Below are positions 13,056 to 26,132 of a stretch of 35,301 nucleotides of DNA, in pieces; position 1 is the stretch's first letter; each line of letters begins with the position of its first letter. The stretch is from positions 1-35,301 of the forward strand of contig CAZOMF010000002.1 in NCBI GenBank assembly GCA_964580635.1, read 5' to 3'. Origin of the DNA: an uncultured Dehalococcoidaceae bacterium (GTDB taxonomy: Bacteria; Chloroflexota; Dehalococcoidia; Dehalococcoidales; RBG-16-60-22). The notes beneath the pieces are model-generated. The model did no database searches and was not told the DNA's origin. It saw nothing but the letters and a program-made list of their open reading frames with translations. The position numbers and the translations under genes are program-made.

Positions 13056-13706
13056 CTAGTGGTCGAGGGAGACGATCCCGTTCTTGATGGCGTAGCGGGT
13101 GAGGTCGGCGCGGTTGTGCAGGTTGAGCTTACCCATGATGTTGGAGCGGTGGGTCTGCACGGTGGTGGGACTGAGGAAGAGCCGGGCGGCGATCTCCTGG
13201 TTATTGTAGCCTTCTCCGATCAGCTTCAGCACTTCCATTTCCCGGTTGGTGAGCCCGTCCTGCCGGTCCCGGTCCGCCGCCGGTCGGCCCCGCTCCAGGT
13301 AGCCGGAGAGGAGCTTCTTGGCCATGGTGGGGTAGAGGAAGACATCGCCGCGGGCGACCGCCTTGAGCGCCGAGATAAGCTCCTCCGAGGAGCCGCCCTT
13401 CACGAAGTAGCCGGACGCGCCGGCCTCCAGCGCGTTGAAAAAGTACTCGTCCTCCTCGTGCATGGTAAGGATGAGGACCTTGACATCGGGGTGCTCGTCA
13501 TTGATGCGGCGGGCGGCTTCCAGGCCATTGACGCCCGGCATGGTGATATCCATCAGCACGACGTCCGGGTGCAGCCGGACGACTGCTTCGAGGGCCTCCT
13601 CGCCGCTGGTGGCCTCGCCGACAACCTCGACGCCCTCGCAAGGCTCCAGCAAGGCCCGCAGCCCCTCCCGGACGATAACGTGGTCATCCACGATCAACAC
13701 CTGCAT
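13056..13706 (-). CDS. Response regulator, NarL/LuxR family (REC + GerE-type HTH)
   Basis: 216 aa. REC domain (MQVLIVDDH..., phospho-acceptor context VVLMDITMPG) and C-terminal HTH LTNREMEVLKLIGEGYNNQEIAARLFLSPTTVQTHRSNIMGKL. ATG at 13706 with AAGGAG upstream. Confidence 0.92.
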   Translation of the reverse strand: MQVLIVDDHVIVREGLRALLEPCEGVEVVGEATSGEEALEAVVRLHPDVVLMDITMPGVNGLEAARRINDEHPDVKVLILTMHEEDEYFFNALEAGASGYFVKGGSSEELISALKAVARGDVFLYPTMAKKLLSGYLERGRPAADRDRQDGLTNREMEVLKLIGEGYNNQEIAARLFLSPTTVQTHRSNIMGKLNLHNRADLTRYAIKNGIVSLDH

Positions 13707-13731
13707 TGCTCTGGCTCCTTTATCTCTTTGG

Positions 13732-15543
13732 TTATACCGTCGCCTGGTCCAGGGGGATGGTCACCGTCATGCGGGTGCCCGTCCCGGGGACGGACTCGAT
13801 GGCGAACGTGCCATGCAGGAGCGTCGTCCGCTCCTGCATGCCGAGGATGCCCAGCGACTGCTTGCCGGCCTTTTCCCGCAACACCTCTTCCACGTTGAAA
13901 CCGCTGCCGTTATCGGTGATCTCGATGCGGAGCACGCCGTCCGCCGCTTTCAGGTTGATGCTGACCTCGGTGGCCCCGGCGTGCTTGACGACGTTGTGGA
14001 CCGCCTCCTGGATGATGCGGAACACTGCTATCTCCGTGTCCGGCTTGAGGCGGGAACCGACGCCGGCGTGGTCGAAAGTGATGTTAAGGCCGATGTCCGA
14101 CTGGACGGTCGAGAGGTAGGCCCGCAGCCCGGCCACCAGGCCCAGGTCGTCGAGGGAGGAAGGCCGCAGGTCGAGGGTGAGTTTCCGCATCTCGGCGAGG
14201 GTCTTCGTCAATATGTCCTTCGTTTTCCCGAGCTTGGTTAGGAAGGCGGGTTTTTCGCTCTCGGCCATGTCCTCCAGGGACTCCACGTTCATGATAAGTC
14301 CGGTGAGGGTCTGGCCGTACTCGTCGTGGAGTTCCCGGGCGATGCGCTTGCGCTCCTGCTCCTGGGCGTCGATGACGTTCTCCAGGAGGCGCCCGCGCAG
14401 CTCTTCCTTGTCCTTGGCCGCCCGGTAGTTGTCCATGATCTCGTTGCGTGACCGGGCTATCTCCTGACGCATGGTATCGAAGGCGGCGCTCAGTTCGCCG
14501 ATCTCGTCGTTCCGCTGCCGGGGCACCTCGACGTCGTAGTCGTGGACCGACATTTTTCGGGCCGCCCGGGTCAGCTTCTTGATGGGGTCCACCACGGACC
14601 GGGTCAATGCCAGGAGCGGCAGTACCATGAACCCGAGCATGATGCCCCCGAAGGCGAGGAACTGGTGCTCCAGGTGGCCGGTCGCCGCGAAGGTCTCGTC
14701 CTCCGACTGCCGGATGACGACGCCCCATCGCGTCGCGGAGAGCGGGGCGAAGGCGAGCACGTCCTTGCGGCGCTGTACGCTGGAGCCGGCCGTGTGGCAG
14801 CGGTGGCAGGTGCCGACGGTCGGCTGGTGCTCGTCGATGAGGGCGGCGAAACGGCCCGGGTGGTCGCTCGTCTCGAACGGCGAAGGCGGCGTGCCGGGGG
14901 CGGTCCGCGCCAGCACGATGCCGTTACCGTCGATGATCTCCAGGTAGCCGGTCTGGCCGAGCGCAATGTCCTGCCCGAAGGTCTCGGTGCTTATCTGACT
15001 CACGTTCAATGAGCATGACAGCACACCGGCCACGCCGCCGGTGGCGCTCATGAAGGGAACGCTGACCAATACCGTGGGAACGGAGGAAAATACCCCGGAG
15101 ACCAGGTTGGAGATGTCCGGGTTGCCGGAGGTCAGCACTCGCTGGAAATCCGGCAGGTCGGCCAGTGTGGTGCCGGTGAGATTGCCGCCGGCCGGGTCGG
15201 CATCGATGATCTTACCGGTGCTGCCGGTGAGGAAGACGTGGTCGATATCGATATCGAGTTTGCCGAGGTCCGTCCGGAGCTCCTGCGCGAAGGACGTAAA
15301 GCGGGCGCCGTCCGGCAGGGACGGCTCGGACTGGATGGCCTCGCCGACGTGACCGAGGACGTAGTTCAGCGTCTGGTCGAGGCGCCCGGCCAGCACGCGC
15401 GCCAGTACGAGCCGCTCGTCGAGGGCGGTATCGACGCTCTGCCGGACCGACTGCACACCGAGCCAGCTGAACACCACCAGGACGATGAGCAGTGTGGCGA
15501 GGGCCAGCAGCATGACCCGTCCCCTGAGCGAGAGTGCCTTCAA
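13732..15543 (-). CDS. Sensor histidine kinase (HisKA_3 type) with a CxxCH motif in the extracytoplasmic sensor domain
   Basis: TM1 (res. 11-30), a roughly 255-aa outside domain, TM2, HAMP, H-box RIARELHDEYGQTL, and ATPase boxes HNVVKHA, DNGSGF and GILGMQER. CHRCH lies at residues 246-250. The start is either TTG at 15543 or ATG at 15513. Confidence 0.9.
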   Translation of the reverse strand: MKALSLRGRVMLLALATLLIVLVVFSWLGVQSVRQSVDTALDERLVLARVLAGRLDQTLNYVLGHVGEAIQSEPSLPDGARFTSFAQELRTDLGKLDIDIDHVFLTGSTGKIIDADPAGGNLTGTTLADLPDFQRVLTSGNPDISNLVSGVFSSVPTVLVSVPFMSATGGVAGVLSCSLNVSQISTETFGQDIALGQTGYLEIIDGNGIVLARTAPGTPPSPFETSDHPGRFAALIDEHQPTVGTCHRCHTAGSSVQRRKDVLAFAPLSATRWGVVIRQSEDETFAATGHLEHQFLAFGGIMLGFMVLPLLALTRSVVDPIKKLTRAARKMSVHDYDVEVPRQRNDEIGELSAAFDTMRQEIARSRNEIMDNYRAAKDKEELRGRLLENVIDAQEQERKRIARELHDEYGQTLTGLIMNVESLEDMAESEKPAFLTKLGKTKDILTKTLAEMRKLTLDLRPSSLDDLGLVAGLRAYLSTVQSDIGLNITFDHAGVGSRLKPDTEIAVFRIIQEAVHNVVKHAGATEVSINLKAADGVLRIEITDNGSGFNVEEVLREKAGKQSLGILGMQERTTLLHGTFAIESVPGTGTRMTVTIPLDQATV

Positions 15544-15614
15544 ACGCCTGAACAGAATGTACCCTCCAAATCCGTTCGTCGTCCCGGTCGTCCCGGGCGA
15601 ACCTTTTTCTAATT

Positions 15615-15643
15615 TACCACAATGTGGTAGTAATTTCTATAAT
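15615..15643 (+). promoter_or_regulatory. 15-bp perfect palindrome at the -35 position, plus a TATAAT -10, upstream of the decaheme cytochrome gene
   Basis: TACCACA A TGTGGTA (15615-15629), with TATAAT at 15638-15643. The hexamer at -35 distance (TACCAC) is a poor -35, as in activator-dependent promoters. The site lies in the divergent region between the kinase/regulator operon and the cytochrome gene. Confidence 0.4.
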
Positions 15644-15861
15644 GGAAGGGACTACTCGGGGCGTTGTACCCCGGCCTACTTTGGAAAATGTAGCCTCGAT
15701 TTACTCGTTGGAACGTATGCGCCCGAGCCCGGCTGTCGCGTAAAATAGGCATAAGCTAAGAGTGGACCGTCCCGGTACGTCCGGCAAATTTCCCGTTTGG
15801 CAAGGAAAATCCCTGTCCGTGCGTCACTGACGGTCACCGAGAAAGGTGGAAAGAGGTCGAT

Positions 15862-18102
15862 ATGAAGAAACGAATTTTATGGGGGGTAGTGGGGCTGGCC
15901 GGTCTGCTGGTAATGGCGCTGCTGATCGTCTCATGCCAGGGCTCGCCGGGGGCAACCGGTCCGGCGGGAGCGACCGGACCTGCGGGACCCGCCGGGCCAG
16001 CCGGACCTGCCGGCGCCACCGGCGCAACCGGTCCGCAGGGACCGGCCGGACCAGCCGGGCCTGCCGGCCCCATGGCTCCCGGCATCGATACCGGGGAGAA
16101 CGTCACCGTGCAGATTTCCCAGCCGGCCAACGGGCAATACCTGGCCGTGGGCGAAGCAGCGACGGTAACCGTGATGCTGAAGGACAACTACGGGAACGCC
16201 CTGTCCCGGTCGGACTTCAGCACGCTCAGTCTGTACCTCGATGGTCCGCAGGAGACCACCGAGACGGTTACGGCCGTAAAGATGCTCAACGCGAGCACCG
16301 ACCGCAGCCAGAACCCGCACTACTACATCGATCTCCTGACGAACCCTGACGCGCAGGAGAGCAACGGTGTGGTCACCTACAAGCTCCAGCCGGTCAGCGA
16401 CGAGCTGCCCGGGACCTACATGGTCGGCGTCAGGGCGATCAAGAAGGACAACGCGCTGGACCAGAGCTTCCCGCTCCAGAGTTTCCAGCTCGGTACCGCG
16501 ACGGTGGAGGCCCAGATAGTGAGCGCCGACAACTGCGGCAGCTGCCACTACGATGCCCTGAACGGGCAGTACTACCTTCATCACACCCAGGTCTCCAGCC
16601 GCAGCGCGGTCGGCAGCCCGGCCCTCGATTCGCTGCCGGTCGAGACCTGCAAGTTCTGCCACAACAACGACGGCTACGCCGCTTACCACGGCAATATCGA
16701 CGATCCCTCGGCCGGGACCGACGTCGAGACCCCGGATCCCATCGTGCGGCGCGTGCACGGCGTCCATATGGGCTCCCAGCTCGAGAACCCGTTCAATACC
16801 GATAACGCCACCGGCAACTTCGCGGACTTCACGTCCGTCGTGTTCCCGGCGAATGTGGAGAACTGCACCGCCTGCCATACCGATGACCGGTGGAAGACCG
16901 AGCCGTCCATCGAGGCGTGCGGCTCCTGCCACGACAACATCTGGTTCGGCCCGGTGGCCGATATGCCGGCCACGGCCGAGGCCCATCCCGGCGGCCCGCA
17001 GTCGAACGACCAGCTGTGCAGCGCCTGCCACCCGGCGGATGGCCCGTCGCCTTCCGTCTCTGGCGCTCACGACGTGACGCAGACGCTCGATACACTCGAT
17101 ATCACCATGACGCCGCCGGCCAACGGCAAGTACTACGTCGACGGCGAAGCACCCAAGATCACCATCAACGTCCTCGACGACAACGGCAACGTCGTCGACC
17201 CGACCATGGTCACGGATGCCAACTTCTCAGGGGCCGACCTCTTCGTCTACGGCCCGCGCGACATGGCCAGGCCGGTCCTCACCCTCGCTTCCCATGACCT
17301 CGGCACCGGCTACGACAATCCCAACGACCTGCTCGATCCCGCCGCGGACCCGGCCATCTCCGTGACGGCGTCCGGTATCACCTACCAGCTCGATGCCATC
17401 CAGGGTCTCGATGCCGGCACCTATATGGTGTACTCCTTCATCAACCCGAAGGAAGGCGCGGTCGCCGACATGACGGCCAACTCGGCCATCGGGCTGATCA
17501 ACTTCCAGGTCGGCACGGCCACCGTGGAACCCAAGATAGCCGAGAACTGCACCGACTGCCACGGCAATACCATCTGGCATGACGACGGCACCCATATCCA
17601 TCCCGAGCCGTTCGATACCGACTACTGTCTCGCCTGCCACGACTACGGCCGCGGCGGCACCGGCGACCTGTGGGCCGCCATCGGCGGGAACTCCACCAGC
17701 GGCTTCGCCGGCTACGGCGCCCAGCCGCTCTCGAACCGCGTTCATGGCGTCCACTACGGCGCCTACGTGGCTAATCCGGACTACATCACCTCCAACGGCG
17801 CCTTCTCGGACGTCGTCTTCCCGCAGGACATCAGGGATTGCCAGAAGTGCCACGATTCGAACACCTCCGGCGCCTGGAACTCCGACCCGAACCGGCTGGC
17901 TTGCAGCGGCTGCCACAACGATGGCACCGCCCTCGCTCACATGAATACGATGATCGATAACTTCAACCGGCTCGATCCGTACAGCGAGGACTCCACCCCG
18001 GCCTGCGAGATCTGCCACGGCGCCGATGCCGACTTCGCCCCGGCCAAGGTACACAGCATCGCCAACCCGTACGTACCGCCGTACCCGCGCGCCGGCGGCT
18101 AG
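15862..18102 (+). CDS. Lipoprotein decaheme c-type cytochrome with a collagen-like stalk (MtrC/OmcA-like domain layout)
   Basis: 746 aa. Signal peptide plus lipobox LIVS-C25. (G-X-Y)15 at residues 27-71. Ten CxxCH motifs at C225, 263, 335, 353, 386 and C563, 589, 660, 681, 715. The internal duplication is visible: QLGTATVEAQIV..NCGSCH vs QVGTATVEPKIAENCTDCH; RRVHGVHMG vs NRVHGVHYG; FTSVVFPANVENCTACH vs FSDVVFPQDIRDCQKCH. AAGAGG lies 5 nt upstream of the ATG. Confidence 0.9.
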   Translation: MKKRILWGVVGLAGLLVMALLIVSCQGSPGATGPAGATGPAGPAGPAGPAGATGATGPQGPAGPAGPAGPMAPGIDTGENVTVQISQPANGQYLAVGEAATVTVMLKDNYGNALSRSDFSTLSLYLDGPQETTETVTAVKMLNASTDRSQNPHYYIDLLTNPDAQESNGVVTYKLQPVSDELPGTYMVGVRAIKKDNALDQSFPLQSFQLGTATVEAQIVSADNCGSCHYDALNGQYYLHHTQVSSRSAVGSPALDSLPVETCKFCHNNDGYAAYHGNIDDPSAGTDVETPDPIVRRVHGVHMGSQLENPFNTDNATGNFADFTSVVFPANVENCTACHTDDRWKTEPSIEACGSCHDNIWFGPVADMPATAEAHPGGPQSNDQLCSACHPADGPSPSVSGAHDVTQTLDTLDITMTPPANGKYYVDGEAPKITINVLDDNGNVVDPTMVTDANFSGADLFVYGPRDMARPVLTLASHDLGTGYDNPNDLLDPAADPAISVTASGITYQLDAIQGLDAGTYMVYSFINPKEGAVADMTANSAIGLINFQVGTATVEPKIAENCTDCHGNTIWHDDGTHIHPEPFDTDYCLACHDYGRGGTGDLWAAIGGNSTSGFAGYGAQPLSNRVHGVHYGAYVANPDYITSNGAFSDVVFPQDIRDCQKCHDSNTSGAWNSDPNRLACSGCHNDGTALAHMNTMIDNFNRLDPYSEDSTPACEICHGADADFAPAKVHSIANPYVPPYPRAGG
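15940..16074 (+). repeat. Collagen-like G-X-Y triplet repeat (15 triplets) inside the cytochrome gene
   Basis: GSP GAT GPA GAT GPA GPA GPA GPA GAT GAT GPQ GPA GPA GPA GPM. Nearly every copy uses different synonymous codons (ggt ccg gcg / gga cct gcg / gga ccc gcc / ggg cca gcc ...). Confidence 0.9.
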
Positions 18103-18130: not shown

Positions 18131-18165
18131 GGGGGGTGGCCCAGCGGGCCACCCCCCGTCTTTTA
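18131..18165 (+). terminator. Intrinsic terminator after the decaheme cytochrome gene
   Basis: GGGGGGTGGCCC agc GGGCCACCCCCC (12-bp stem) followed by GTCTTTTAT. Confidence 0.85.
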
Positions 18166-18310: not shown

Positions 18311-20080
18311 ATGTCCTACCAGATACTGCTCTCGGTGATGAGCCCTGAGACCGGAGTGAAGAAAGCCCCCGGCGCCCCGCCGCCCGGAATGGGTGCGCCG
18401 GCCAAAGGAAAAGCGACCAGGGCCAAACGGCTCGATACGCTGGAAGGCAAGACCGTCTACCTGGTGGATACCGGCTTCGGCGGGGGCTATAACTTCTTCG
18501 TGCAGCTCCAGAAATGGTTCCAGGAGCATATGCCATCCGTCAGGACCGTCCGCAAGCGCAAGCCGGGCAACCTGTTCCGGGACGATAACGACACCCTCTG
18601 GGAGGAGATCAAGCAGAAGGGCGATGCCGCGGTCGTCGGGGTGGCCGGCTGACCGGGCTGCGTGACGGCGGTCGCCGCCAGCCACACCAAGCTCGAACAG
18701 ACCTACGGTGTCCCCGTGGCCCCGCTCTCCACCTACCAGTTCCAGACGGTGGTCCAGGGTAACCCGATGTCTTCCTCGCTGCCCTTCGTGTACACGCCGC
18801 ACCCGGTCATCGGCCTGTCTCCGGAGGCGCTCGACGCCTACATAATCGGCGAGGACCCGGACACCGGGAAGACCGTCATCGACGAGATCATCGATGTCCT
18901 CACAAAACCGGTCGAACGCAACAGCGGGAAACCCGCCGCCTCGGCCTCCGGCGAACCGGCAGCGACCGGGACCACGCTCGGCCCGGACACCGAGGACAAC
19001 CTCCAGCGCCTGTTCTACGAGCGGGGCTGGACGGACGGCCTGCCCGTCATCCTGCCCACCGAGGAGCGCGTCCGGGCGATGCTGAAGGGCACCAGCGCCG
19101 CCCCGGACGAGGTCGTGGCCGAGCAGTTCTCGTTCGCGACGCGGGAGATGATACAGTACACCGTCGAGCACTTCGCGGTCATCGCGGTGATGGCCGGCGC
19201 CCGGCCGGAGTACTTCCCGGTCATCCTCGCCATCGGAGCGACCAAGCAGAGCTCGCTCATGCCCTCCACCACCCCCTTCGAGGCGATGCTGCTCGTTAAC
19301 GGTCCCGTCCGGCGGGAGATCGGCATGAACTGCGGCATCGGCGCCTACAGCGCCGTCAACATGGCCAACGCGGTGCTGGGCCGGGCCTGGACGCTGATGA
19401 GCATCGTCCACGGGTTCGCCAGGCCGCGGTCCACGCTGTGGAGTTCGCAGGGCAACAACCATACCTACAACAATATGTGCGCCGGCGAGAACGAGGAGGC
19501 GAGCGTCTGGGAACCGTTCCACGTTACCAAAGGCTTCACCGCCGAAGAGAGCGTCGTCAGCATTTTCCGGGGCTGGAGCTTCCTCAACAGCACCGGGGCG
19601 GCCTCCAAGCGCTCGCTCGGGGAGGAGCTGAACCTCCAGCTCGCCGTCATGCCGCCCGTTAACTCGTCGTGCACCATCATCATGGACCCGCTCGTGGCGA
19701 AGAACCTGAAGGAGAACGAGGGCTACGCCACGAGGCAGGACTTCACCGGATGGATGTCCGAGAATATCAGGATGCCGAACGGGCAGTTCTGGAAGACGGA
19801 CTACATCGATATGCTCGTCGCCTCCGAGGCGTACAAGGGCGTCGAACCCTACGCGTCCTGGAAAGCGCTCCCGGACGACGCCATGATAGCCCCCTACCAC
19901 AAGCCGGAGAACATCAATATCATCGTCGTGGGCGGCGAGACGAGCCCGCTCTGGAAGGTGGCGGACTACGGCTACTCCGGCAGTTCCTCCGTCGACCGCT
20001 GGCGACCGCTCGCCGCCGACGCGGACTGTCCCGACGGTTCCTGCGGTCTGTCAGACCCCGTGGGCGACTACGACGAGTAG
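18311..20080 (+). CDS. Predicted selenoprotein: U-x-x-C (UPGC) redox module fused to an uncharacterised ~450-aa domain; in-frame TGA at 18650-18652 read as Sec114
   Basis: Track ORFs 18311..18652 and 18662..20080 are in the same frame, separated only by TGA. The sequence across the junction is ...GDAAVVGVAG-U-PGCVTAVAASHTKLEQTYGVPVAPL.... The downstream part has no ATG or SD of its own. The paralog at 23216..24904 has a TGA at the aligned position (...LDTLIVAYGD-U-GSCTKYSLYNAISAEERGIPAVAV...). A hairpin with a GGUC apical loop starts 3 nt after the TGA. Confidence 0.75.
18656..18683 (+). other. Candidate bacterial SECIS hairpin for the TGA at 18650
   Basis: GGCTGCGTGACGGCGGTCGCCGCCAGCC. Lower stem is 18656-18659 with 18680-18683. 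Upper stem is GGC/GCC closing the apical loop GGUC (18670-18673). Further pairs are 18666-18677, 18664-18678 and 18662-18679, leaving a bulged U at 18663. The loop sits about 18-21 nt after the UGA. Confidence 0.4.
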
Positions 20081-20104: not shown

Positions 20105-20138
20105 GGCCCCCGGAAAAAACTCTCCGGGGGCCTTTTGT
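20105..20138 (+). terminator. Intrinsic terminator after selenoprotein gene 1
   Basis: GGCCCCCGGA aaaaactc TCCGGGGGCC followed by TTTTGTT. Confidence 0.85.
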
Positions 20139-20609: not shown

Positions 20610-21101
20610 ATGATGAACTTCAAAAACAATATCACCAGACGAGACTTTCTGAAACGTATCGTTATCGGCGGCGCCGGCGCCGTCGCCGCGGCCATCGCCA
20701 CGCCGCTCATCGGTTCGTTCCTCAGCCCCCTATGGCAGAAGAGCAAAAAACCGGCCATCGCGGTGGCCCATACTGACCAGATACCAGTCGGCACGCCGAC
20801 CTTTGTCCGCTTCGAAGAGCGCGCGCCGGACGGCTGGCTGGTGACGACGGAGAGCCTGGGCGTCTGGATACTCACCCAGGACGGTAAAAACTTTACCCTC
20901 TACGACCCGCACTGCACGCACCTGCGCTGCCCGTTCTACTGGGACGCTCAGAAGAAAACGTTCATGTGCCCGTGCCATGGCGGAGAGTTCGATATCGACG
21001 GCAACGTCATCGCCGGGCCGCCGCCCCGCCCGCTGGACCGCTGGGAGTTTACGATCCAGGACGGTGAAATCATCACGTCAGGGGAGATAATCAAAGGTTA
21101 A
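20610..21101 (+). CDS. Rieske [2Fe-2S] protein of a cytochrome bc-type complex, Tat-exported
   Basis: 163 aa. Twin-arginine motif TRRDFLK followed by a TM helix. Box I is CTHLRCP and box II is CPCHGGEF, including the disulfide cysteines typical of bc1/b6f Rieske proteins. Confidence 0.92.
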   Translation: MMNFKNNITRRDFLKRIVIGGAGAVAAAIATPLIGSFLSPLWQKSKKPAIAVAHTDQIPVGTPTFVRFEERAPDGWLVTTESLGVWILTQDGKNFTLYDPHCTHLRCPFYWDAQKKTFMCPCHGGEFDIDGNVIAGPPPRPLDRWEFTIQDGEIITSGEIIKG

Positions 21102-23129
21102 ATGGCTGAGCAAAAAAACAACGGCTGGGTTGAAGAGCGCCTATCGCTCAAAAAGCCCTGGGGATGGTTCCTAGACCGGAAAGTGCCGCGCACCGGGTGG
21201 GTGTATACCCTCGGCAGCGCTACGATGTTCGTGTTCATCATCCAGGTGATGACGGGCATCTTCCTGATGTTCAACTACTCACCGTCGCCGGACCACGCCT
21301 GGGACAGCATCAATTACATTATGACCAACGTGACCTTCGGCGCGTTCATACGGAGCATGCACTTCTACGCGGCCAGCGCCATGGTCATTCTCGTTATCCT
21401 GCACCTGGTGCGTGTCTTTTTCATGGCGGCCTATAAATACCCGCGCGAGCTCACCTGGGTCGTTGGCGTCGGGCTCCTGCTGCTGGTGCTCGGCTCGTCC
21501 TTTACCGGTTACCTGCTGCCCTGGGACCAGCGGGCTTACTGGGCTACCAACGTCGCCTCCGGCATCGCCGGTGAAACGCCGTTTATCGGTCACTGGGTAC
21601 AGGCCCTCCTCATAGGAGGGTCCCAGATAGGCACGGTGACGCTCACGCGTTTCTTTACCTTCCACGTCATCGTCATCCCGGCGCTGACCGCCGGGCTCAT
21701 CGGTCTCCACCTGATGATGGTGGTGCGCCAGGGCATCTCGGCCTCGCCCCGCAAGATGAAGGGTCAGATGCTGCCCGCCCAGACCGTGAAGGACGCCTAC
21801 GAAGCCGAATACGAAGCCAGCAAGAAGGACGGCGAGTCCTTCTTCCCCGGTACCTTGGCCAAGGATACCATCATGGCACTGGCGGTGGTAGGCGTCATCA
21901 TGCTGCTGGCCGCCCTCTTCCCGCATGTCAGCCAGGCCCCGGCGGACCCCACCAGCACGACCTATAACCCCCGCCCCGAGTGGTACTTCCTCTTCTTCTT
22001 CGAGTTCCTCAAGCTCTTCCCCGGCTCACTGGAGTCGGTGGCCGCGGTCCTGGTGCCCGCGCTCGCCTTCCTGCTGCTGCTGGCAGTGCCGTTCCTGAGC
22101 CGCGGCTTCCGGCGTACCTGGTCGAGCCGCAAGGTTTCCCTCTCCGTCGGCGGAGTGGTCGTGGCCGGGTTGCTCATCTTTGAGGTACTCGGCGCGGCAT
22201 CGGCCCCGGCGCGACCGGAGGTCGGCCTCACCGAGGTCCAGGTACAGGGGCAGCGCGTCTACCAGGAGGTTAACTGCGGCTACTGCCACACCATCAACGG
22301 CATCGGCGGCGCCGTCGGTCCCGACCTCTCCAATATCGCTTCGACGCTCACCCCGGACCAGATAAAAGCCTATCTCAGCAACCCGGACGCGATGGTGCCC
22401 AACACGCTCCATCCCAAGCTTCAGTTCACGCCGGACGAGCTGAACGAGCTGACCGCCTATCTCTCCACTTTGGGCGCGCCGGTAAGCTACAGCGCCCAGG
22501 CCCCGGGTCTCTTCGACAAATATTGCAGCAGCTGCCATGCCGTCAACGGCCAGGGCGGCACCATCGGGCCCGACCTGACCGATGTCGGCAGCCGGCACCC
22601 GCTGACCTTCATCGAATCGTTCATCAGCGATCCCGGTTCCGTGGTTACCGGCGCCAGCATGCCCGCCTTCCACGATAAGCTGACTCAGGACCAGATCAAC
22701 GATATCGCCGGCTATCTCTTCAGTCTCAAGAACAGCGCTGCCACGCCGACACCGACCGCGACAGCCACGACGCCCAGCCCGACGGCGACCACCACCACGA
22801 CGCCGACCATGACGACGACCAGCCATACGGCCACGACCACGCCGAGCCCGACTACTACGACGACCAGCCCCACGGCTACCACCACCACGACGACGGCCGC
22901 GATCGATGCCGCCGGTCTTTACACGCAGTATTGCGCCGGGTGCCACGGGGACAGCCGGCAGGGAGGTATCGGGCCGGCGCTGACGCCATCGATACTGGGC
23001 GGCCAGTCGATTTCGGAGATAACCGGCGTGATCACCCAGGGTAAAGAAAACATGCCGGGTTTCTCCAGTCTGTTAAGCGCCGACCAGATCGACGCCCTGG
23101 CCAACTACATACAGACCTCACAACCCTAA
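21102..23129 (+). CDS. Fused cytochrome b (b6-like) + subunit IV + three monoheme cytochrome c domains
   Basis: 675 aa. The ATG abuts the Rieske TAA. Helix B histidines are SMH-x13-H and helix D histidines are FH-x14-H (b6/Firmicute-type spacing). Qo-site motif PEWYF. Then CGYCH, CSSCH, a Thr/Pro-rich linker and CAGCH, each followed by an MP-type methionine ligand region. Confidence 0.9.
   Translation: MAEQKNNGWVEERLSLKKPWGWFLDRKVPRTGWVYTLGSATMFVFIIQVMTGIFLMFNYSPSPDHAWDSINYIMTNVTFGAFIRSMHFYAASAMVILVILHLVRVFFMAAYKYPRELTWVVGVGLLLLVLGSSFTGYLLPWDQRAYWATNVASGIAGETPFIGHWVQALLIGGSQIGTVTLTRFFTFHVIVIPALTAGLIGLHLMMVVRQGISASPRKMKGQMLPAQTVKDAYEAEYEASKKDGESFFPGTLAKDTIMALAVVGVIMLLAALFPHVSQAPADPTSTTYNPRPEWYFLFFFEFLKLFPGSLESVAAVLVPALAFLLLLAVPFLSRGFRRTWSSRKVSLSVGGVVVAGLLIFEVLGAASAPARPEVGLTEVQVQGQRVYQEVNCGYCHTINGIGGAVGPDLSNIASTLTPDQIKAYLSNPDAMVPNTLHPKLQFTPDELNELTAYLSTLGAPVSYSAQAPGLFDKYCSSCHAVNGQGGTIGPDLTDVGSRHPLTFIESFISDPGSVVTGASMPAFHDKLTQDQINDIAGYLFSLKNSAATPTPTATATTPSPTATTTTTPTMTTTSHTATTTPSPTTTTTSPTATTTTTTAAIDAAGLYTQYCAGCHGDSRQGGIGPALTPSILGGQSISEITGVITQGKENMPGFSSLLSADQIDALANYIQTSQP
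22737..22901 (+). repeat. Thr/Pro/Ala-rich low-complexity linker coding region
   Basis: Encodes AATPTPTATATTPSPTATTTTTPTMTTTSHTATTTPSPTTTTTSPTATTTTTTAA, between the second and third cytochrome c domains. Confidence 0.85.
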
Positions 23130-23154
23130 GGACTGACGTAGAACCTGAATAAAT

Positions 23155-23194
23155 AACCGCCTCCGGGTTTGATCCCGGAGGCGGTTTTCTTTTC
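23155..23194. terminator. Bidirectional intrinsic terminator between convergent genes
   Basis: AACCGCCTCCGGG tttgat CCCGGAGGCGGTT (13-bp stem) followed by TTCTTTTC on the plus strand and TTATTTATTC on the minus strand. Confidence 0.85.
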
Positions 23195-23215
23195 TAGCGG
23201 GCTATCGTTATTTGG

Positions 23216-24904
23216 CTAGTACCGGACGTAATTCGGGACGACGTTCTTGTACTTTTTGACGAGCTTGTCCCAGTTCTGTGGGAACTCTATCTTCTGTATC
23301 TCGGCGCAACCCGGCGTCGGCACGCCGCCCATCGCGTGGGCGATGAACGAGCCTGGCCCGCCGGCCACGAGCACCCGGATCACCCGCGGGTCGCGGACGA
23401 GCGGCAGGGTATCGCCCTCGCGGGCGGTGACGTGCCCCTTGAAGAGCTTGGGTGCGCCCTGTCCCATCGCCCGTCCCCGCTGGGTCGCCGGCAGGCGCTT
23501 GTACTCGCAGATGAAGTCCCGGATGTCCTGCTTGGTCCAGCCGAAGGAGGCCAGCGTCTTGGCGTGGAGCGGCGGGAACATGATGGAGTAGCCGAAGCCC
23601 GGCACGATGTTGTCCAGCACGGACCGCATGATGCCGTCCTCGTCGTTGCTCGGCGGATAGTGCTGGACGTAAGACTGCGGGAAGGTCAGCATGAGGGTGC
23701 TGTCCTCGCGGCTGAAGCCGTACTCGGTGTGGAGCGGTTCCCAGGGGCTCTCCTCCTCGTTCTCCGGCATGACGGCGGTGTACTTCATCGGGTTGCCCAT
23801 GACGCCCATGTCCTCGATGCCCTTGCGGACGCCGCCGAGGTTCTTGATGACGAAGCCCAGCGCCCGTCCGATAGCCGCGTTGGCGATATTACCCGGGCTC
23901 AGCACGCCGGAGCTGCTGTTGAGGTTGATCTGGCCCCGGACGGGCCCGTTGACGGTCCAGAACGGCGCCCAGGAACCGGTGCTGACGCCGAAGGTAGTGA
24001 AGCCCTGGAAACCCATCTCCGAATCGAGCAGCAGCCGCGTCCCGGCCAGGATGACCGGCAGGTGGGTGGGCAGGGCGCCGGCCATGACGGCGTTGACGGC
24101 TACCTTCTCCACCGTCACCTTGCCCAGGCGCGGGATAAGCTTGCCGAGGAGCGTGTCCCGGGCGAGGTCCGTGCCCGTCAGCATCTCGGCGACGCGGTCC
24201 TCGGTCGGGGGGATGATGGGGAAGCCGTCCGTCCAGCCGCGCTGGTAGTAGAAGCGGTTGACGTCGTCGAGGCTGCCCTTGAAGACGAGCCGGCTGACCT
24301 TCTCCGTTTTCGCCGGGGCGGGCGAGCGCTCCGCCTCGGTGAGGGGCGTCACCGCTGCCTTGACGATGGCGTCCACGGCGAGCAGTGTGTTCTGTTCGAT
24401 GACGTCGAGCATGGTGGATTCCGGCGGCACCGTGGTGGGCACGAAGCGCACCCCCGGCATGGCCCGGCTCGAAGCGGCCGAGTGGGCGTCCTCGATGAAG
24501 CCGTCGTTGATGACGGCGACGGCCGGGATGCCGCGCTCTTCCGCGGAAATTGCATTGTACAAACTGTACTTGGTGCAGGACCCTCAGTCGCCGTAGGCGA
24601 CGATGAGGGTGTCGAGACCCTTGAGCCAGTCTTCGAACTTCTCCTTGTTGATGGATTCCGCCTCCGGCGTGTTCATCTGGGTCTCCTGGTACCAGGCGAA
24701 GGTGGCGTCCGGGTAGCGCCGGGAGAGCTCTTTTTCCAGCACGTCGAGCAGCGGCTTGGAGGCGCGTTTCCAGATGTGGTAGAGGCCGATGGTCTTGCCG
24801 GCGAGGTCGGCGGGGCGTTCAACAGTGAGGCCGCGTGGCGCCACCGGGTCGACCTCCGCCCAGGGACTGAGCGTTTCGTACGCGGGGGATGCGTTCTGTG
24901 GCAT
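23216..24904 (-). CDS. Predicted selenoprotein paralog: U-x-x-C (UGSC) module fused to the same uncharacterised domain; in-frame TGA at 24586-24584 read as Sec107
   Basis: Track ORFs 24584..24967 and 23216..24562 share a frame and are separated only by TGA. The true start is probably ATG at 24904 (MPQNASPAYETL), with GGAGGT 4 nt upstream. Blocks shared with the 18311 gene: GKT(V/I), D-x8-U-x-x-C, G(V/I)P(V/A), (Y/F)Y(E/Q)RGWTDG(L/F)P(V/I)I(L/P)PTE(E/D)RV, AV(I/N)AVMAGA, NGPVR, ENEE.S.WEP(F/L)H. Confidence 0.75.
24551..24577 (-). other. Weak candidate SECIS hairpin for the TGA at 24586
   Basis: On the minus strand: UGCA CCAA GUAC aguuu GUAC AA UGCA. Two 4-bp stems with an internal loop, starting 6 nt after the UGA. 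This stretch is unusually AT-rich for coding sequence here. There is no GGUC loop, so support is weak. Confidence 0.3.
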
Positions 24905-25059
24905 ACTTACCTCCTGATACGGGTTTGCGCAGCGTTCGCCCCGACACGCGGGGCGGCGCCTGTCCATTCATCATATACGATACGCAAGCGCACCGCCACC
25001 ATGCGTTGCCGTTATTCCGCGTTGTGAAACACACGCACGGAGCACGCGTTTTTTCGTAA

Positions 25060-25075
25060 TGTGACATAGTTCACA
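25060..25075. promoter_or_regulatory. Perfect TGTGA-N6-TCACA palindrome (CRP/FNR-family-type site)
   Basis: TGTGA catagt TCACA, in the divergent intergenic region between selenoprotein gene 2 (start 24904, minus) and the NrfD-like gene (start 25230, plus). The centre is about 70 nt upstream of the transcription start predicted from TATAAT at 25125. Confidence 0.45.
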
Positions 25076-25101
25076 GACTTGATTGCTCAAATGATGTATC
25101 A

Positions 25102-25130
25102 TGGAAATGTAAGGTTAAGTATCGTATAAT
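25102..25130 (+). promoter_or_regulatory. Candidate promoter of the NrfD-like gene
   Basis: TGGAAA (25102-25107), a 17-nt spacer, then TATAAT (25125-25130). Two GCGTAACG direct repeats (25156-25163 and 25182-25189) lie in the predicted leader. Confidence 0.35.
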
Positions 25131-25229
25131 AAATAAAGCATTGAAACGCTAATATGCGTAACGATTATTAGAAAACACTGCGCGTAACGTAATCAAGCAA
25201 CCCCCGGACCGGAAGGAGTACCTGCCCCG

Positions 25230-26132
25230 ATGTCGAATGCAATACATGATTGGATGGTCAACTATACCCGCCAGACCGAGTGGATAGACCGACGCGGTCT
25301 TTTCCTCTGGGTGGCCTTTTTCTCCGGCACGCTCGGCGGCGGCCTCTACCTGGCGTCGCTCTATTTCAACAGCATCTGGGGCATGTTCGCCGGCTGGCTC
25401 ATCGTCGCCGTCATCAAGGGCGGCGCTCACATGATGGACCTCGGCAAGCCATGGCGCGCCTGGCGCATGGTGATGCGGCCCGGCTCTTCTTGGATGTCCC
25501 GCGGGCTCATCTTCGTATTTACCTTCATCGGCGCCGGCGCCGTCCAGCTCGCCCTCTCGCTCTGGCTGCCAGGCAGCGCCGCCGAGATCACCAGCAAGAT
25601 ACTGGCCGGCATGGCCGCCTTCGGCGTGGCCATCTACAGCGGCTTCGTGCTCAACACGGTCAAGGGCGTGCCCTTCTGGAACTCGGCCCTCCTGCCCATG
25701 CTCGTCGGCCTCTACGGCGTGCTCTGCGGGCTCGGCGTGATGATGGTCATCGGCCTCGCCGGCAGCAGCATCGACCTCACCCTCGCCGAGGGCGTCAGCC
25801 GCTACCTCATCTTCACCACTACCGCCCTCATCGCCGTCTATCTCTGGACGGCCGCCCGGCGCGGCCCCACCGGCCGGAACTCTGTCCTCCAGCAGGTCCG
25901 CGGCGAGCTGAAGACGGTCTTCTGGGGCGGCCTCGTGACGCTCGGCATCGTGGTGCCGGTCGTCATCGCCATCGTGAGCTTCTTCGTCAGCGAGGTATCC
26001 CCGGTGCTGCTTGTCATCGGCGTCGTCTCCGAGGTCGTCGGCGGGCTCTCGCTCGGCTTCTGCGTGCTCAAGGCCGGGGCTTACAAACCCCTCGTCGCCA
26101 GGCCCGCCCACAGCCGCCAGCCCGTTCGCTAG
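25230..26132 (+). CDS. NrfD/PsrC-like polytopic membrane protein (putative quinone-interacting anchor), orphan
   Basis: 300 aa with about 8 TM helices. The N-terminal pattern W..R.LFLWVAFFSGTLGGGLYL resembles the first helix of NrfD-family subunits; this assignment is by eye. GGAAGGAG lies upstream of the ATG. The gene has its own promoter and terminator, and no adjacent 4Fe-4S or catalytic subunit gene. Confidence 0.55.
   Translation: MSNAIHDWMVNYTRQTEWIDRRGLFLWVAFFSGTLGGGLYLASLYFNSIWGMFAGWLIVAVIKGGAHMMDLGKPWRAWRMVMRPGSSWMSRGLIFVFTFIGAGAVQLALSLWLPGSAAEITSKILAGMAAFGVAIYSGFVLNTVKGVPFWNSALLPMLVGLYGVLCGLGVMMVIGLAGSSIDLTLAEGVSRYLIFTTTALIAVYLWTAARRGPTGRNSVLQQVRGELKTVFWGGLVTLGIVVPVVIAIVSFFVSEVSPVLLVIGVVSEVVGGLSLGFCVLKAGAYKPLVARPAHSRQPVR

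What the first reader, a model, noticed from the sequence alone, without database searches (positions are those of the whole stretch)
13056..26132. Candidate undescribed redox system: heme-sensing two-component pair, collagen-stalked decaheme, fused bc complex, orphan NrfD and two U-x-x-C selenoproteins in one 13-kb island
Seven consecutive transcription units, each bounded by clear promoters or terminators, are all redox-related. (1) A kinase with a CxxCH sensor domain plus a NarL-type regulator. (2) A surface decaheme lipoprotein. (3) Selenoprotein 1. (4) Rieske plus cytochrome b-IV-c3. (5) Selenoprotein 2. (6) An NrfD-like anchor. The selenoproteins have no export signal, so they should be cytoplasmic. 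The hemes and the Rieske cluster face outward. One reading is an electron path linking a cytoplasmic Sec-dependent reductase or oxidoreductase chemistry, via the quinone pool (NrfD-like protein, bc complex), to an extracellular decaheme terminal. I know of no described system with this composition. The functional link is inferred from co-localisation only.
Basis: inference. Interest (0 to 1): 0.85.

Follow-up and report, generated by a model that had tools for sequence, protein, structure and literature searches.

The report
Redox gene mosaic, not one system
A contig, probably from Chloroflexota, carries a collagen-stalked ten-heme surface cytochrome, a bc complex, a lone membrane anchor and two selenoproteins side by side. 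Comparison with about 170 related loci shows that the selenoproteins and the anchor are only neighbours in this one lineage, not parts of a new respiratory system.

Summary
Both TGA genes are true selenoproteins. They belong to the known "UGSC" family, here fused to an uncharacterised domain of about 400 aa. That fusion family is very large (6,449 clusters at 50% identity), spans many phyla and is often multi-copy.

In 84 loci from other species (1.29 Mb) it never lies near a Rieske protein, cytochrome b, this type of NrfD or a decaheme. Its recurrent neighbours are short-chain dehydrogenases, transporters and catabolic enzymes. The "orphan" NrfD descends from ordinary Fer4–NrfD–molybdoenzyme operons. 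The full arrangement recurs only in three near-identical congeners, which already differ by two 1-kb indels.

A smaller core does have outside support: the two-component pair, the decaheme and the bc complex. Rieske/cytochrome b genes adjoin decaheme relatives in 4 of 83 loci (about 0.2 expected), and NarL-type pairs lie directly upstream in about 7.

So the region is a lineage-specific mosaic. It holds a plausible electron-export module, interleaved with unrelated cytoplasmic selenoprotein genes and a stray anchor.

Two parts deserve follow-up: the lipobox–collagen-stalk–decaheme architecture, for which I found no paper, and the unstudied UGSC-fusion family.

The parts
13056..13706 (-). NarL/FixJ-type response regulator (receiver plus GerE helix-turn-helix)
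   Evidence: Pfam Response_reg 110 bits and GerE 79 bits. No NCBIfam equivalog cutoff is reached.
13732..15543 (-). Sensor histidine kinase: TM, extracytoplasmic dCache_1 with one CHRCH (aa 246), TM, HAMP, HisKA_3, HATPase
   Evidence: The CxxCH motif is conserved in congeners L001 and L002 only. It is absent from the decaheme-adjacent kinases of L089.
15614..15643 (+). Promoter-like site upstream of the decaheme gene, in the divergent intergenic region shared with the kinase operon
   Evidence: 10 of 12 matches. This is a consensus match only.
15862..18102 (+). Lipoprotein-anchored decaheme c-type cytochrome of the MtrC/OmcA family
   Evidence: PF22113 97.7 bits; TIGR03507 205.6 bits against a cutoff of 209.3. 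Ten invariant CxxCH motifs. Lipobox Cys25.
15940..16074 (+). Collagen-like G-x-y run (15 triplets, aa 27-71) directly after the lipobox cysteine: the proposed stalk
   Evidence: Of 120 relatives, 48 have 5-29 triplets at the same place.
18131..18157 (.). Strong bidirectional terminator-like hairpin (12 bp, 11 GC) separating the decaheme gene from selenoprotein gene 1
18311..20080 (+). UGSC-domain selenoprotein 1 (589 aa): N-terminal UGSC domain with U-P-G-C, fused to an uncharacterised C-terminal domain; cytoplasmic
   Evidence: PF24696 52 bits. It is 28% identical to selenoprotein 2 over 439 aa. dN/dS is 0.12 for the N-terminal half and 0.20 for the C-terminal half. No signal peptide or TM segment.
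18650..18652 (+). In-frame TGA read as selenocysteine (selenoprotein 1)
   Evidence: The orthologues in L001 and L002 keep the TGA.
18654..18695 (+). Hairpin downstream of the UGA (apical loop GGUC/GUC): candidate bacterial SECIS
   Evidence: MFE -19.5 kcal/mol, z = -1.0, not significant on its own. Family-level covariation.
20105..20132 (+). Terminator-like hairpin after selenoprotein gene 1
20610..21101 (+). Rieske [2Fe-2S] subunit with Tat signal (RRDFLK), CTH and CPCH
   Evidence: JGI names cluster members 'menaquinol-cytochrome c reductase iron-sulfur subunit'.
21102..23129 (+). Fusion of cytochrome b6, subunit IV and three class-I cytochrome c domains (CGYCH, CSSCH, CAGCH). Seven TM helices; PEWY motif. 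The third c domain sits on a Thr/Pro-rich tether of about 53 aa (nt ~22743-22901).
   Evidence: PF00033 171 bits, PF00032 37 bits, PF13442 x3. ExtP model 229 bits against a cutoff of 290..
23155..23186 (.). Bidirectional terminator-like hairpin (13 bp) between the convergent cytochrome b gene and selenoprotein gene 2
23216..24907 (-). UGSC-domain selenoprotein 2 (563 aa): UGSC domain with U-G-S-C, fused to an uncharacterised C-terminal domain; cytoplasmic
   Evidence: PF24696 101 bits; NF041046 86.8 bits against a cutoff of 125. More than 4,167 relatives found. dN/dS is 0.14 and 0.11 for the two halves. AF2 model pLDDT 80, with no significant PDB match.
24584..24586 (-). In-frame TGA read as selenocysteine (selenoprotein 2)
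   Evidence: 50 of 50 family genes use TGA.
24551..24577 (-). Hairpin 10-36 nt after the UGA (core GUACA/UGUAC, loop GUU): candidate SECIS
   Evidence: z = -0.04, not significant alone. The core stem, alignment columns 18-21 with 27-30, covaries across 48 genes.
25102..25168 (+). Two promoter-like sites upstream of the NrfD gene
25230..26132 (+). NrfD/PsrC-type membrane protein (300 aa) with no iron-sulfur or catalytic partner gene in the window
   Evidence: PF03916 59 bits. dN/dS 0.16. Homologues at 60-65% identity lie in Fer4_11-NrfD-molybdopterin operons.

Best explanation
The 13-kb stretch is a lineage-specific mosaic of at least five separately transcribed units. It is not one conserved system.

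(A) A core module probably moves electrons between the menaquinone pool and a target beyond the cell wall.
- The Rieske/cytochrome b6-type complex exchanges electrons with quinol. This is inferred from family membership.
- Its three fused outward-facing cytochrome c domains, the last on a flexible Thr/Pro tether, would pass electrons on. This is inferred.
- The acceptor would be an MtrC/OmcA-type decaheme held off the membrane on a lipid-anchored collagen-like stalk. The stalk is probably trimeric and about 13 nm long. This is inferred from sequence and by analogy with bacterial collagen-like stalk proteins.
- The direction of flow, export or uptake, cannot be told from sequence.
- The divergently transcribed NarL-type two-component pair, whose Cache sensor carries a c-heme motif, probably controls expression in response to an extracytoplasmic redox or gas signal. 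This is inferred.

(B) The two selenoprotein genes are paralogues (28% identity) of the UGSC-fusion family. They are cytoplasmic proteins in which a U-x-x-C redox domain is joined to an uncharacterised domain of about 400 aa. Their usual genomic company is short-chain dehydrogenases, solute transporters and catabolic enzymes. That company points to soluble substrate-specific redox enzymes unrelated to the respiratory chain. This is an inference.

(C) The NrfD gene is an intact anchor of the type that serves Fer4-NrfD-molybdoenzyme complexes in Dehalococcoidia. Here it is separated from any partner gene. Its partner, if it has one, is encoded elsewhere.
For: Gene identities and topologies. Separate transcription units.

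Selenocysteine reading:
- 50 of 50 family genes use TGA at the U position.
- The downstream hairpin covaries: 67.6% of cells paired against 25-48% when slid, and 0 of 500 shuffles reach the observed value.
- dN/dS is 0.11-0.20 on both sides of the TGA.

Size and spread of the UGSC-fusion family:
- More than 4,167 hits at 90% clustering.
- 6,449, 4,084 and 1,540 clusters at 50% identity for E <= 1e-3, 1e-10 and 1e-30.
- At least 590 stretches in species-representative genomes of many phyla.
- Tandem arrays are common.

No link between the selenoproteins and respiratory genes:
- 0 of 84 loci (1.29 Mb) have a Rieske protein, cytochrome b, this NrfD type, a decaheme or this kinase.
- Recurrent neighbours are SDR (21 loci), ABC ATPase (14), TctC (13), luciferase-like (9), MmgE/PrpD (8) and TauD (8).
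- Individual neighbourhoods are unrelated to one another.

Support for the core module:
- Rieske plus cytochrome b lie directly beside decaheme relatives in L148, L152, L153 and L162. That is 4 of 83 loci against about 0.2 expected (Poisson P = 6e-5), and 0 of 84 in the control loci (Fisher P = 0.06).
- NarL-type kinase/regulator pairs lie directly upstream of the decaheme in about 7 loci, against 0 of 84 controls (P = 0.007).

NrfD: Fer4_11-NrfD-molybdopterin operons in L172, L173 and L174.

Mosaic nature: against the 84% nt-identical congener L001, the window lacks an SDR gene and a stand-alone UGSC gene (two 1-kb indels), and synteny ends at 29171.
Against: - The bc-decaheme adjacency is a minority arrangement, and some of the four loci may come from related organisms.
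- Most decaheme relatives stand alone, lie in tandem, or sit next to other quinol-oxidase-type modules.
- In the window the decaheme and bc genes are separated by selenoprotein gene 1 and a terminator.
- The neighbourhood survey mainly sampled the selenoprotein 2 subfamily and more distant relatives. The U-P-G-C subfamily of selenoprotein 1 was seen only in congeners.
- One decaheme locus from another genus (L090) does carry a UGSC-like fusion two genes away. That member has no Sec or Cys, and its genome holds several family copies (L025).
- Heme attachment to the kinase, the triple-helix state of the stalk and the cell-envelope type of the organism are all untested.
Confidence: 0.7

Rival explanations
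1. One reading: all units form one new respiratory system. In it, cytoplasmic Sec-dependent redox chemistry by the two U-x-x-C proteins is coupled through NrfD and the bc complex to the extracellular decaheme.
For: - All units lie within 13 kb, and the order is kept in three congeners: L001, L002 and L091.
- In L001 a stand-alone U-D-G-C selenoprotein follows NrfD on the same strand.
- One further decaheme locus (L090) has a UGSC-like fusion nearby.
Against: - 0 of 84 UGSC-family loci from other species carry any of the respiratory genes.
- 0 of 83 decaheme loci carry this type of NrfD, and only L090 outside the genus carries a UGSC gene. That gene lacks the redox motif.
- Terminators separate the units.
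- The family is multi-copy and occurs in phyla where this decaheme family was not seen.
- Congeners already differ by gain or loss of a UGSC gene and an SDR gene inside the island.
- No iron-sulfur or flavin link between the cytoplasmic proteins and NrfD is encoded.
Confidence: 0.07
2. Pure coincidence throughout. Even the two-component pair, the decaheme and the bc complex are functionally unrelated neighbours. The bc complex would serve ordinary aerobic or nitrate respiration, and the decaheme would be fed by another quinol oxidase encoded elsewhere.
For: - Most decaheme relatives have no bc complex nearby (79 of 83 loci).
- Some sit next to 444-aa NrfD/PsrC-type proteins or porin-cytochrome genes instead.
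- Against the control loci the Fisher test for bc adjacency is only P = 0.06.
- The kinases upstream of other decahemes have different sensor domains.
Against: - Four independent contigs place Rieske and cytochrome b immediately next to a decaheme, including a monoderm-type arrangement of cytochrome b, small cytochrome c and decaheme in L153.
- The Poisson expectation is about 0.2 loci.
- The fused, tethered c domains suit delivery to a distal partner.
Confidence: 0.2
3. The TGA-containing genes are split genes or pseudogenes, not selenoproteins.
For: - Gene callers split them in every database record.
- No selA, selB, selC or selD lies in the window.
- The hairpins of the two window genes are not individually more stable than shuffled sequence.
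Against: - TGA, and never TAA or TAG, occupies the same codon in 50 of 50 genes across many phyla, within a conserved D/A-U-G-S/A-C motif.
- Cys-containing full-length homologues exist.
- There is purifying selection on both halves.
- The hairpin covaries 15-18 nt downstream.
- The family is a published selenoprotein family (PMC2398784; NCBIfam NF041046).
Confidence: 0.02

Closest known systems
UGSC-containing selenoprotein family (Zhang and Gladyshev 2008, PMC2398784; Pfam PF24696; NCBIfam NF041046), including the 'UGSC/Unknown_1 fusion' noted in ocean metagenomes
   Same: - An N-terminal domain of about 150 aa with the U-G-S-C motif and Sec encoded by TGA.
- Pfam gathering score passed by both genes.
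- Function still unknown in reviews from 2022 and 2026 (PMC9312934, PMC13188914).
   Different: - Both window proteins are fusions of about 570 aa and fall below the NCBIfam equivalog cutoff (41.8 and 86.8 bits against 125).
- Selenoprotein 1 has U-P-G-C.
- I could not verify that the published 'Unknown_1' domain is the same C-terminal domain, because that figure is held only as an image.
Shewanella MtrC/OmcA outer-surface decaheme lipoproteins (Mtr pathway)
   Same: - Ten CxxCH motifs.
- MtrC/MtrF domain II/IV Pfam match.
- Lipoprotein signal.
   Different: - No MtrA or MtrB porin-cytochrome partners and no CymA.
- A collagen-like stalk follows the lipid anchor.
- TIGR03507 scores just under its cutoff (205.6 against 209.3).
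- The host is probably a Chloroflexota bacterium without an outer membrane (inferred from the closest named relatives).
Geobacter extHIJKLMNOPQS cluster (PMC5877670)
   Same: - One cluster combines a Rieske protein (ExtO), cytochrome b (ExtP), a membrane subunit (ExtQ), a lipoprotein cytochrome c (ExtS), 10- and 12-heme cytochromes and a selenocysteine-containing protein.
- The window cytochrome b scores 229 bits on the ExtP model.
   Different: - The Geobacter selenoprotein is a periplasmic multiheme cytochrome (ExtKL), not a cytoplasmic UGSC protein.
- The ext cluster has a porin and a rhodanese.
- The ExtP and ExtS cutoffs are not reached (229 against 290; 30 against 100).
Menaquinol:cytochrome c reductases of Firmicutes and Actinobacteria (QcrABC; from my own knowledge of the family)
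   Same: - Rieske subunit with Tat signal.
- b6-type cytochrome b with a separate subunit IV homology region.
- c-type cytochrome domains fused to the membrane subunit rather than a separate cytochrome c1.
   Different: - Here cytochrome b, subunit IV and three monoheme c domains form one 675-aa polypeptide with a long Thr/Pro tether.
- The QcrA/B/C NCBIfam cutoffs are not reached.
NrfD/PsrC membrane anchors of complex iron-sulfur molybdoenzymes
   Same: - Pfam NrfD match.
- Homologues at 60-65% identity lie in Fer4_11-NrfD-molybdopterin operons in Dehalococcoidia-type contigs.
   Different: - No iron-sulfur or molybdopterin subunit lies next to it in the window.
- The 71%-identical homologue in L170 is likewise detached and sits next to a flavoprotein, a ferredoxin and a URO-D gene.
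Bacterial collagen-like stalk proteins (BclA, Scl1/Scl2; from my own knowledge) and heme-c sensor domains (Geobacter GSU0582/GSU0935, PMC3460858; sCache_heme/DUF3365, PMC12889525)
   Same: - Short G-x-y run between an anchor and a globular head.
- One CxxCH inside an extracytoplasmic sensor domain of a signalling protein.
   Different: - The head here is a decaheme cytochrome, and I found no paper on that combination.
- The kinase sensor matches dCache_1, not DUF3365.
- Heme binding is untested.

Membership tests
UGSC family (seleno)protein (PF24696 / NF041046) | Match to the family profile above the curated threshold | tested here: inconclusive
   Pfam gathering score met by both (52.1 and 101.3 bits against 25). 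NCBIfam equivalog cutoff not met (41.8 and 86.8 against 125). They share the domain but are not the stand-alone equivalog.
UGSC family (seleno)protein (PF24696 / NF041046) | U/C-G-S-C motif with Sec encoded by an in-frame TGA | tested here: met
   Selenoprotein 2 has D-U-G-S-C-T. Selenoprotein 1 has the variant G-U-P-G-C-V. TGA occupies this codon in 50 of 50 family genes.
UGSC family (seleno)protein (PF24696 / NF041046) | Stand-alone protein of about 150 aa | tested here: not met
   The window proteins are 589 and 563 aa, with an extra C-terminal domain of about 400 aa that has no Pfam, NCBIfam or PDB match.
Bacterial selenoprotein gene (SECIS-dependent recoding) | Stem-loop shortly downstream of the UGA | tested here: inconclusive
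   Family-wide covariation of a hairpin at columns 18-21 with 27-30. The two window hairpins are not individually significant (z = -0.04 and -1.0), and RNAalifold gave no consensus structure.
Bacterial selenoprotein gene (SECIS-dependent recoding) | selA, selB, selC and selD present in the genome | not testable with these tools
   The window is the whole 35.3-kb contig. It holds no tRNA and no sel genes.
OmcA/MtrC decaheme cytochromes (TIGR03507, PF22113) | Ten CxxCH motifs and MtrC/MtrF domain II/IV | tested here: met
   Ten motifs, invariant in 33 relatives. PF22113 97.7 bits against 30. TIGR03507 205.6 bits against a cutoff of 209.3, marginally below.
Mtr-type porin-cytochrome pathway | Adjacent MtrA-like periplasmic decaheme and MtrB-like porin | tested here: not met
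   Neither is in the window. Porin-like and 7-heme genes are present only in diderm-type relatives L148 and L152.
Rieske/cytochrome b (bc / b6c) complex | Rieske CxH...CxxH with Tat signal; cytochrome b N- and C-terminal (subunit IV) domains; c-type heme subunit | tested here: met
   CTH and CPCH; RRDFLK; PF00033 171 bits; PF00032 37 bits; PEWY motif; three CxxCH domains.
NrfD/PsrC anchor of a molybdoenzyme complex | NrfD profile match | tested here: met
   PF03916 59.3 bits against 25.8.
NrfD/PsrC anchor of a molybdoenzyme complex | Adjacent four-cluster ferredoxin and catalytic subunit genes | tested here: not met
   Absent from the window. Present for the 60-65% homologues. L001 has a molybdopterin gene 4 kb away but no Fer4_11 gene.
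sCache_heme (DUF3365/Tll0287) heme-c sensor domains | DUF3365 profile match with a conserved CxxCH in an inserted helix | tested here: not met
   The sensor matches dCache_1 (57.9 bits), with no DUF3365 hit at E <= 0.01. A CHRCH motif is present. Covalent heme cannot be tested here.
Geobacter ext (selenite/tellurite reduction) cluster | ExtP and ExtS equivalog scores; porin ExtI; rhodanese ExtH; Sec-cytochrome ExtKL | tested here: not met
   ExtP 229 bits against 290; ExtS 30 against 100. No porin, rhodanese or Sec-cytochrome in the window.
One conserved gene cluster (the proposed system) | Components syntenic or co-located outside the immediate lineage | tested here: not met
   0 of 84 from the UGSC side and 0 of 83 for NrfD from the decaheme side. 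Only the bc complex (4 of 83) and NarL-type pairs (about 7 of 83) recur next to the decaheme.

The most novel reading that the evidence does not exclude
The core that survives testing could be an undescribed route of extracellular electron transfer for bacteria without an outer membrane. A menaquinol-oxidising Rieske/cytochrome b complex would hand electrons through its own tethered cytochrome c domains to a decaheme. The decaheme would be displayed as a trimer on a lipid-anchored collagen triple helix of tunable length (5-29 triplets across relatives), long enough to reach through the wall. Independently, the UGSC-fusion proteins would be a very large family of cytoplasmic selenoenzymes (thousands of clusters) whose catalytic domain has no relative in the PDB.
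Probability: 0.3. Interest if true: 0.7.

Novelty: new variant of a known kind. Interest (0 to 1): 0.4.

Why it matters
If the island had been one system, it would have tied selenium biochemistry to extracellular respiration. The comparative data say it does not, which spares an expensive follow-up on a false lead.

Two things remain useful.

1. Decaheme cytochromes on collagen-like stalks are common in Chloroflexota metagenome-assembled genomes from groundwater and sediment. They are sometimes wired next to bc complexes. They may explain how these abundant, mostly uncultured, wall-bounded bacteria reach minerals or partner cells.
2. The UGSC-fusion family is among the larger selenoprotein families with no known function or fold. 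Its usual genomic company (dehydrogenases, transporters, catabolic enzymes) gives a starting point for biochemical work.

Tried and rejected
I modelled the 448-aa part after the TGA instead.
- Foldseek against the PDB gave nothing at E <= 0.001. The best hit was class-I fumarate hydratase at E = 0.013 and TM 0.18, followed by weak IRG1/MmgE-PrpD and Trx-like hits that I treat as noise.
- Sequence and profile searches of the PDB found nothing.
- A permissive Pfam scan of 25 family members found nothing for the C-terminal domain.
- A second AF2 model, of the C-terminal domain of selenoprotein 1, came out at pLDDT 58. It was too poor for a fold search.
- RNAalifold found no consensus SECIS, because the hairpin register differs between clades. 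The window hairpins are not more stable than shuffles.
- Rfam and tRNA scans of the window were empty.
- The 2008 supplementary figure showing the 'UGSC/Unknown_1' fusion is held only as an image, so identity with this C-terminal domain could not be checked.
- I considered that NrfD might pair with UGSC proteins, because L001 has a stand-alone U-D-G-C gene after NrfD. I rejected this as a general link: that gene is missing from the window, NrfD homologues elsewhere pair with Fer4 and molybdopterin genes, and no UGSC-family locus has this NrfD.
- I considered horizontal transfer of the island. The base composition does not differ from the flanks.
So I could not test conservation of the kinase CxxCH beyond the congeners. 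I also could not survey the neighbourhoods of the U-P-G-C subfamily or of the nearest outgroup decaheme (P0122, 60% identity).

Full report
**What is in the sequence**

- A NarL-type response regulator and a histidine kinase lie on the minus strand.
- The kinase has two TM helices around a dCache_1 domain. That domain carries a single CHRCH at aa 246. Two of the protein's three cysteines form this motif, and composition predicts 0.0003 such motifs by chance.
- Divergent from them lies a 746-aa cytochrome. It has a lipoprotein signal (Cys25), then 15 G-x-y triplets, then ten CxxCH motifs. All ten are invariant in 33 relatives, and the protein matches the MtrC/MtrF domain II/IV model.
- Next come a gene with an in-frame TGA (U-P-G-C), a Tat-dependent Rieske protein, and a 675-aa fusion of cytochrome b6, subunit IV and three cytochrome c domains, which abuts the Rieske stop codon.
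- Then come a convergent second TGA gene (U-G-S-C) and a 300-aa NrfD-family protein.
- Strong terminator-like hairpins at 18131-57, 20105-32 and 23155-86, together with promoter-like sites at 15614, 18218 and 25102/25141, mark these as separate transcription units.

The only correction is that the second selenoprotein probably starts at 24907.

**The TGA genes are real selenoproteins of a named family**

Both N-terminal regions match Pfam PF24696 "UGSC" above its threshold. Both also match the NCBIfam "UGSC family (seleno)protein" model, but below its equivalog cutoff.

Evidence for Sec recoding:
- In 86 loci, all 50 family genes that have the UxxC motif use TGA at that codon, never TAA or TAG.
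- A hairpin 15-18 nt downstream covaries (AU/GC/CG at one pair, CG/GC at another). 67.6% of cells are paired against 25-48% for slid registers, and 0 of 500 shuffles reach the observed value.
- The two window hairpins are not significant on their own, and RNAalifold finds no single consensus.
- Against the congener L001, both halves of both genes show dN/dS of 0.11-0.20.

Pseudogenisation is therefore excluded.

UGSC-containing proteins have been a recognised and abundant selenoprotein family since 2008. That paper also mentions a "UGSC/Unknown_1" fusion (PMC2398784). Reviews from 2022 and 2026 still list the function as unknown.

**The fusion family is very large, and its second domain has no known relative**

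- A search of 5.8 billion proteins gave more than 4,167 hits. Nearly all of the 120 listed hits are ORFs of about 430-450 aa that cover only the roughly 80% of the query downstream of the TGA.
- A profile search of 1.84 billion cluster representatives gave 6,449, 4,084 and 1,540 clusters at E <= 1e-3, 1e-10 and 1e-30.
It returned members from Dehalococcoidia, Acidobacteriota, Burkholderiales, Rokubacteria, Methylomirabilota, Actinomycetota and others.
- Forms with Cys, Ala, Gly or Ser at the U position exist, as do stand-alone C-terminal domains and tandem arrays of up to four copies.
- The AF2 model of the post-TGA part is confident (pLDDT 80, pTM 0.83). It has no PDB match at E <= 0.001.
- Sequence and profile searches of the PDB and permissive Pfam scans also find nothing for the C-terminal domain.

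**Test of the proposed system, starting from the selenoproteins**

I compared all window proteins by tblastn with 86 loci that carry a family member. Rieske, cytochrome b, NrfD, decaheme and kinase homologues occur only in L001 and L002. These are two assemblies whose selenoprotein 2 is 93% identical to the window's.

The other 84 loci cover 1.29 Mb. Even at E < 0.01 they have none of these genes, and only one locus has any ORF with 3 or more CxxCH motifs.

- Clustering of all ORFs shows no dominant neighbour. The most frequent are short-chain dehydrogenases (21 loci), ABC ATPases (14), TctC-type binding proteins (13), luciferase-like monooxygenases (9), MmgE/PrpD (8) and TauD (8).
- Annotated neighbourhoods at 71% and 58% identity are unrelated to each other and to the window.

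**Test starting from the decaheme**

The decaheme belongs to a family of at least 1,911 proteins, mostly from Chloroflexi or Dehalococcoidia metagenome-assembled genomes. Of the top 120, 117 have exactly ten CxxCH motifs.

I examined 83 loci (0.89 Mb).
- No locus holds an NrfD of this type.
- A UGSC-type gene is present in two loci only. One is the 83% congener L091. The other is L090, whose 589-aa member has lost both Sec and Cys. Its genome carries at least three more family copies (L025).
- Rieske plus cytochrome b lie immediately next to the decaheme in four loci: L148, L152, L153 and L162. About 0.2 would be expected for a single-copy complex (Poisson P = 6e-5). There were 0 of 84 in the UGSC loci used as background (Fisher P = 0.06).
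- NarL-type kinase/regulator pairs lie directly upstream in about seven loci, against none among the controls (P = 0.007). Some of these contigs come from sister samples, and their sensor domains differ.
- Other recurrent partners are small c-type cytochromes, 444-aa NrfD/PsrC-type proteins and, in diderm-type contigs, porin-like proteins.

So the decaheme combines with various quinol-side modules, and a bc complex is one of them.

**The NrfD protein**

- It has 684 relatives.
- At 60-65% identity they sit in three-gene operons of a four-cluster ferredoxin, NrfD and a 710-aa molybdopterin oxidoreductase. This is the ordinary molybdoenzyme arrangement.
- The 71% homologue is also detached from such partners.
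- The window gene is intact and constrained (dN/dS 0.16) but has no partner on this contig.

**Micro-evolution of the island**

Against L001 (about 84% nt identity) the window lacks a 1.1-kb segment carrying an SDR gene between selenoprotein 1 and the Rieske gene. It also lacks a 1-kb segment carrying a stand-alone U-D-G-C selenoprotein downstream of NrfD. Synteny ends at 29171, where L001 has a molybdopterin oxidoreductase and the window has a patatin-like gene. Genes come and go inside the "island" even within one genus.

**Most likely mechanism**

Shown:
- gene identities, motifs, topologies and unit boundaries;
- Sec recoding at the family level;
- the lack of conserved linkage for the selenoproteins and NrfD;
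- the recurrent linkage of the decaheme with bc complexes and NarL-type regulators.

Inferred:
- The bc complex exchanges electrons with menaquinol.
- Its three outward c domains relay electrons, the third on a Thr/Pro tether of about 53 aa.
- The acceptor is the decaheme, held about 13 nm from the membrane (45 residues at about 0.29 nm rise) on a probably trimeric collagen-like stalk.
- The kinase senses an extracytoplasmic redox or gas signal through a c-type heme.
- The direction of electron flow is open.
- The selenoproteins are cytoplasmic. A selenenylsulfide-forming U-x-x-C domain would serve or regulate an adjoining catalytic domain acting on a small organic substrate, to judge by their usual neighbours.

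**Comparison with known systems**

- The nearest described cluster is Geobacter extHIJKLMNOPQS. It combines Rieske, cytochrome b, 10- and 12-heme cytochromes and a Sec-containing cytochrome (PMC5877670). The window cytochrome b scores 229 bits on the ExtP model, below the 290 cutoff. There is no porin, rhodanese or Sec-cytochrome, so it is not a member.
- The decaheme resembles Shewanella MtrC/OmcA but lacks MtrA and MtrB and adds the stalk.
- The bc complex resembles the QcrABC type of Gram-positive bacteria (from my own knowledge).
- The kinase sensor recalls heme-c sensor domains (PMC3460858, PMC12889525), but it matches dCache_1, not DUF3365.
- Multiheme cytochromes in Chloroflexi genomes have been reported (PMC3971608, PMC7399161). 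I found no paper that links collagen-like repeats with multiheme cytochromes. That library is incomplete.

**Verdict and limits**

The finding is real as an inventory, but it is not a single undescribed system. It is a new variant of a known kind (a bc-fed surface decaheme with a stalk), lying beside members of a known but uncharacterised selenoprotein family.

Limits:
- The U-P-G-C subfamily was sampled only in congeners.
- Conservation of the kinase heme motif, the oligomeric state of the stalk, the envelope type of the host and the presence of sel genes could not be tested.
- Contig flanks are short in many metagenome loci.

Noticed in passing
window 15940-16074; relatives P0122-P0238: The collagen-like G-x-y run directly after the lipobox cysteine is a recurrent, length-variable feature of this decaheme family. 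It spans 5-29 triplets and occurs in 48 of the top 120 relatives, mostly labelled Chloroflexi or Dehalococcoidia. Relatives labelled Verrucomicrobia lack it. I found no paper on collagen-like multiheme cytochromes.
   Followed up: partly
window 22743-22901 (within the cytochrome b fusion): A Thr/Pro-rich low-complexity linker of about 53 aa tethers the third cytochrome c domain. It looks like a flexible, possibly glycosylated arm for a mobile electron-carrier domain.
   Followed up: no
L001:7640-8281(-) and L001:14468-15427(-): The 93% congener has a stand-alone U-D-G-C selenoprotein gene 138 bp downstream of NrfD, and an SDR gene after selenoprotein 1. Both are missing from the window as clean indels of about 1 kb.
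   Followed up: partly
window 30069-33023 (likely start 30408); L121:3440-3673; L127:2651-3970: A large flavoprotein fuses a geranylgeranyl-reductase-like domain to an NDH-2-like domain. The latter resembles the 'N-terminal to SelD' oxidoreductase model (116 bits, below the cutoff of 310). Homologues of its N-terminal half lie immediately downstream of decaheme genes in two unrelated metagenome contigs.
   Followed up: partly
L090:5960-7729(-); P0376-P0522: Some full-length members of the UGSC-fusion family have Cys, Ala, Gly or Ser instead of Sec, for example D-A-G-S-C. One member next to a decaheme has no redox motif at all (A-G-V-T). Stand-alone C-terminal domains of about 350 aa are also common.
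   Followed up: partly
L025:9977-15140; L033:772-8412; L008; L010: Sec-containing UGSC-fusion genes occur in tandem arrays: three copies in L025, up to four family ORFs in L033, and two each in L008 and L010. The family is expanded in some genomes.
   Followed up: no
L170:1705-6779; window 26201-27472; L173:1-900: A URO-D/MtaA-like gene recurs near this subfamily of NrfD genes (window, L001, L170, L173). In L170 the detached NrfD is followed by a 651-aa FAD_binding_2 protein and a small ferredoxin, which may be a different kind of NrfD-anchored enzyme.
   Followed up: no
L148:4144-13458; L152:1230-10073: Diderm-type contigs encode a 7-heme cytochrome, a porin-like protein of about 735 aa, a decaheme, Rieske, cytochrome b and a 9-heme cytochrome in one row. 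This is a porin-cytochrome cluster wired to a bc-type complex.
   Followed up: partly
L088:4391-14943: Four collagen-stalked decaheme genes lie in tandem next to a molybdopterin oxidoreductase and a ThiS-like gene.
   Followed up: no
window 29213-30244(-): A patatin-like phospholipase gives weak hits to anti-phage and CBASS lipase models (E 1e-7 to 1e-5, far below their cutoffs). It sits exactly where synteny with the congener ends.
   Followed up: no
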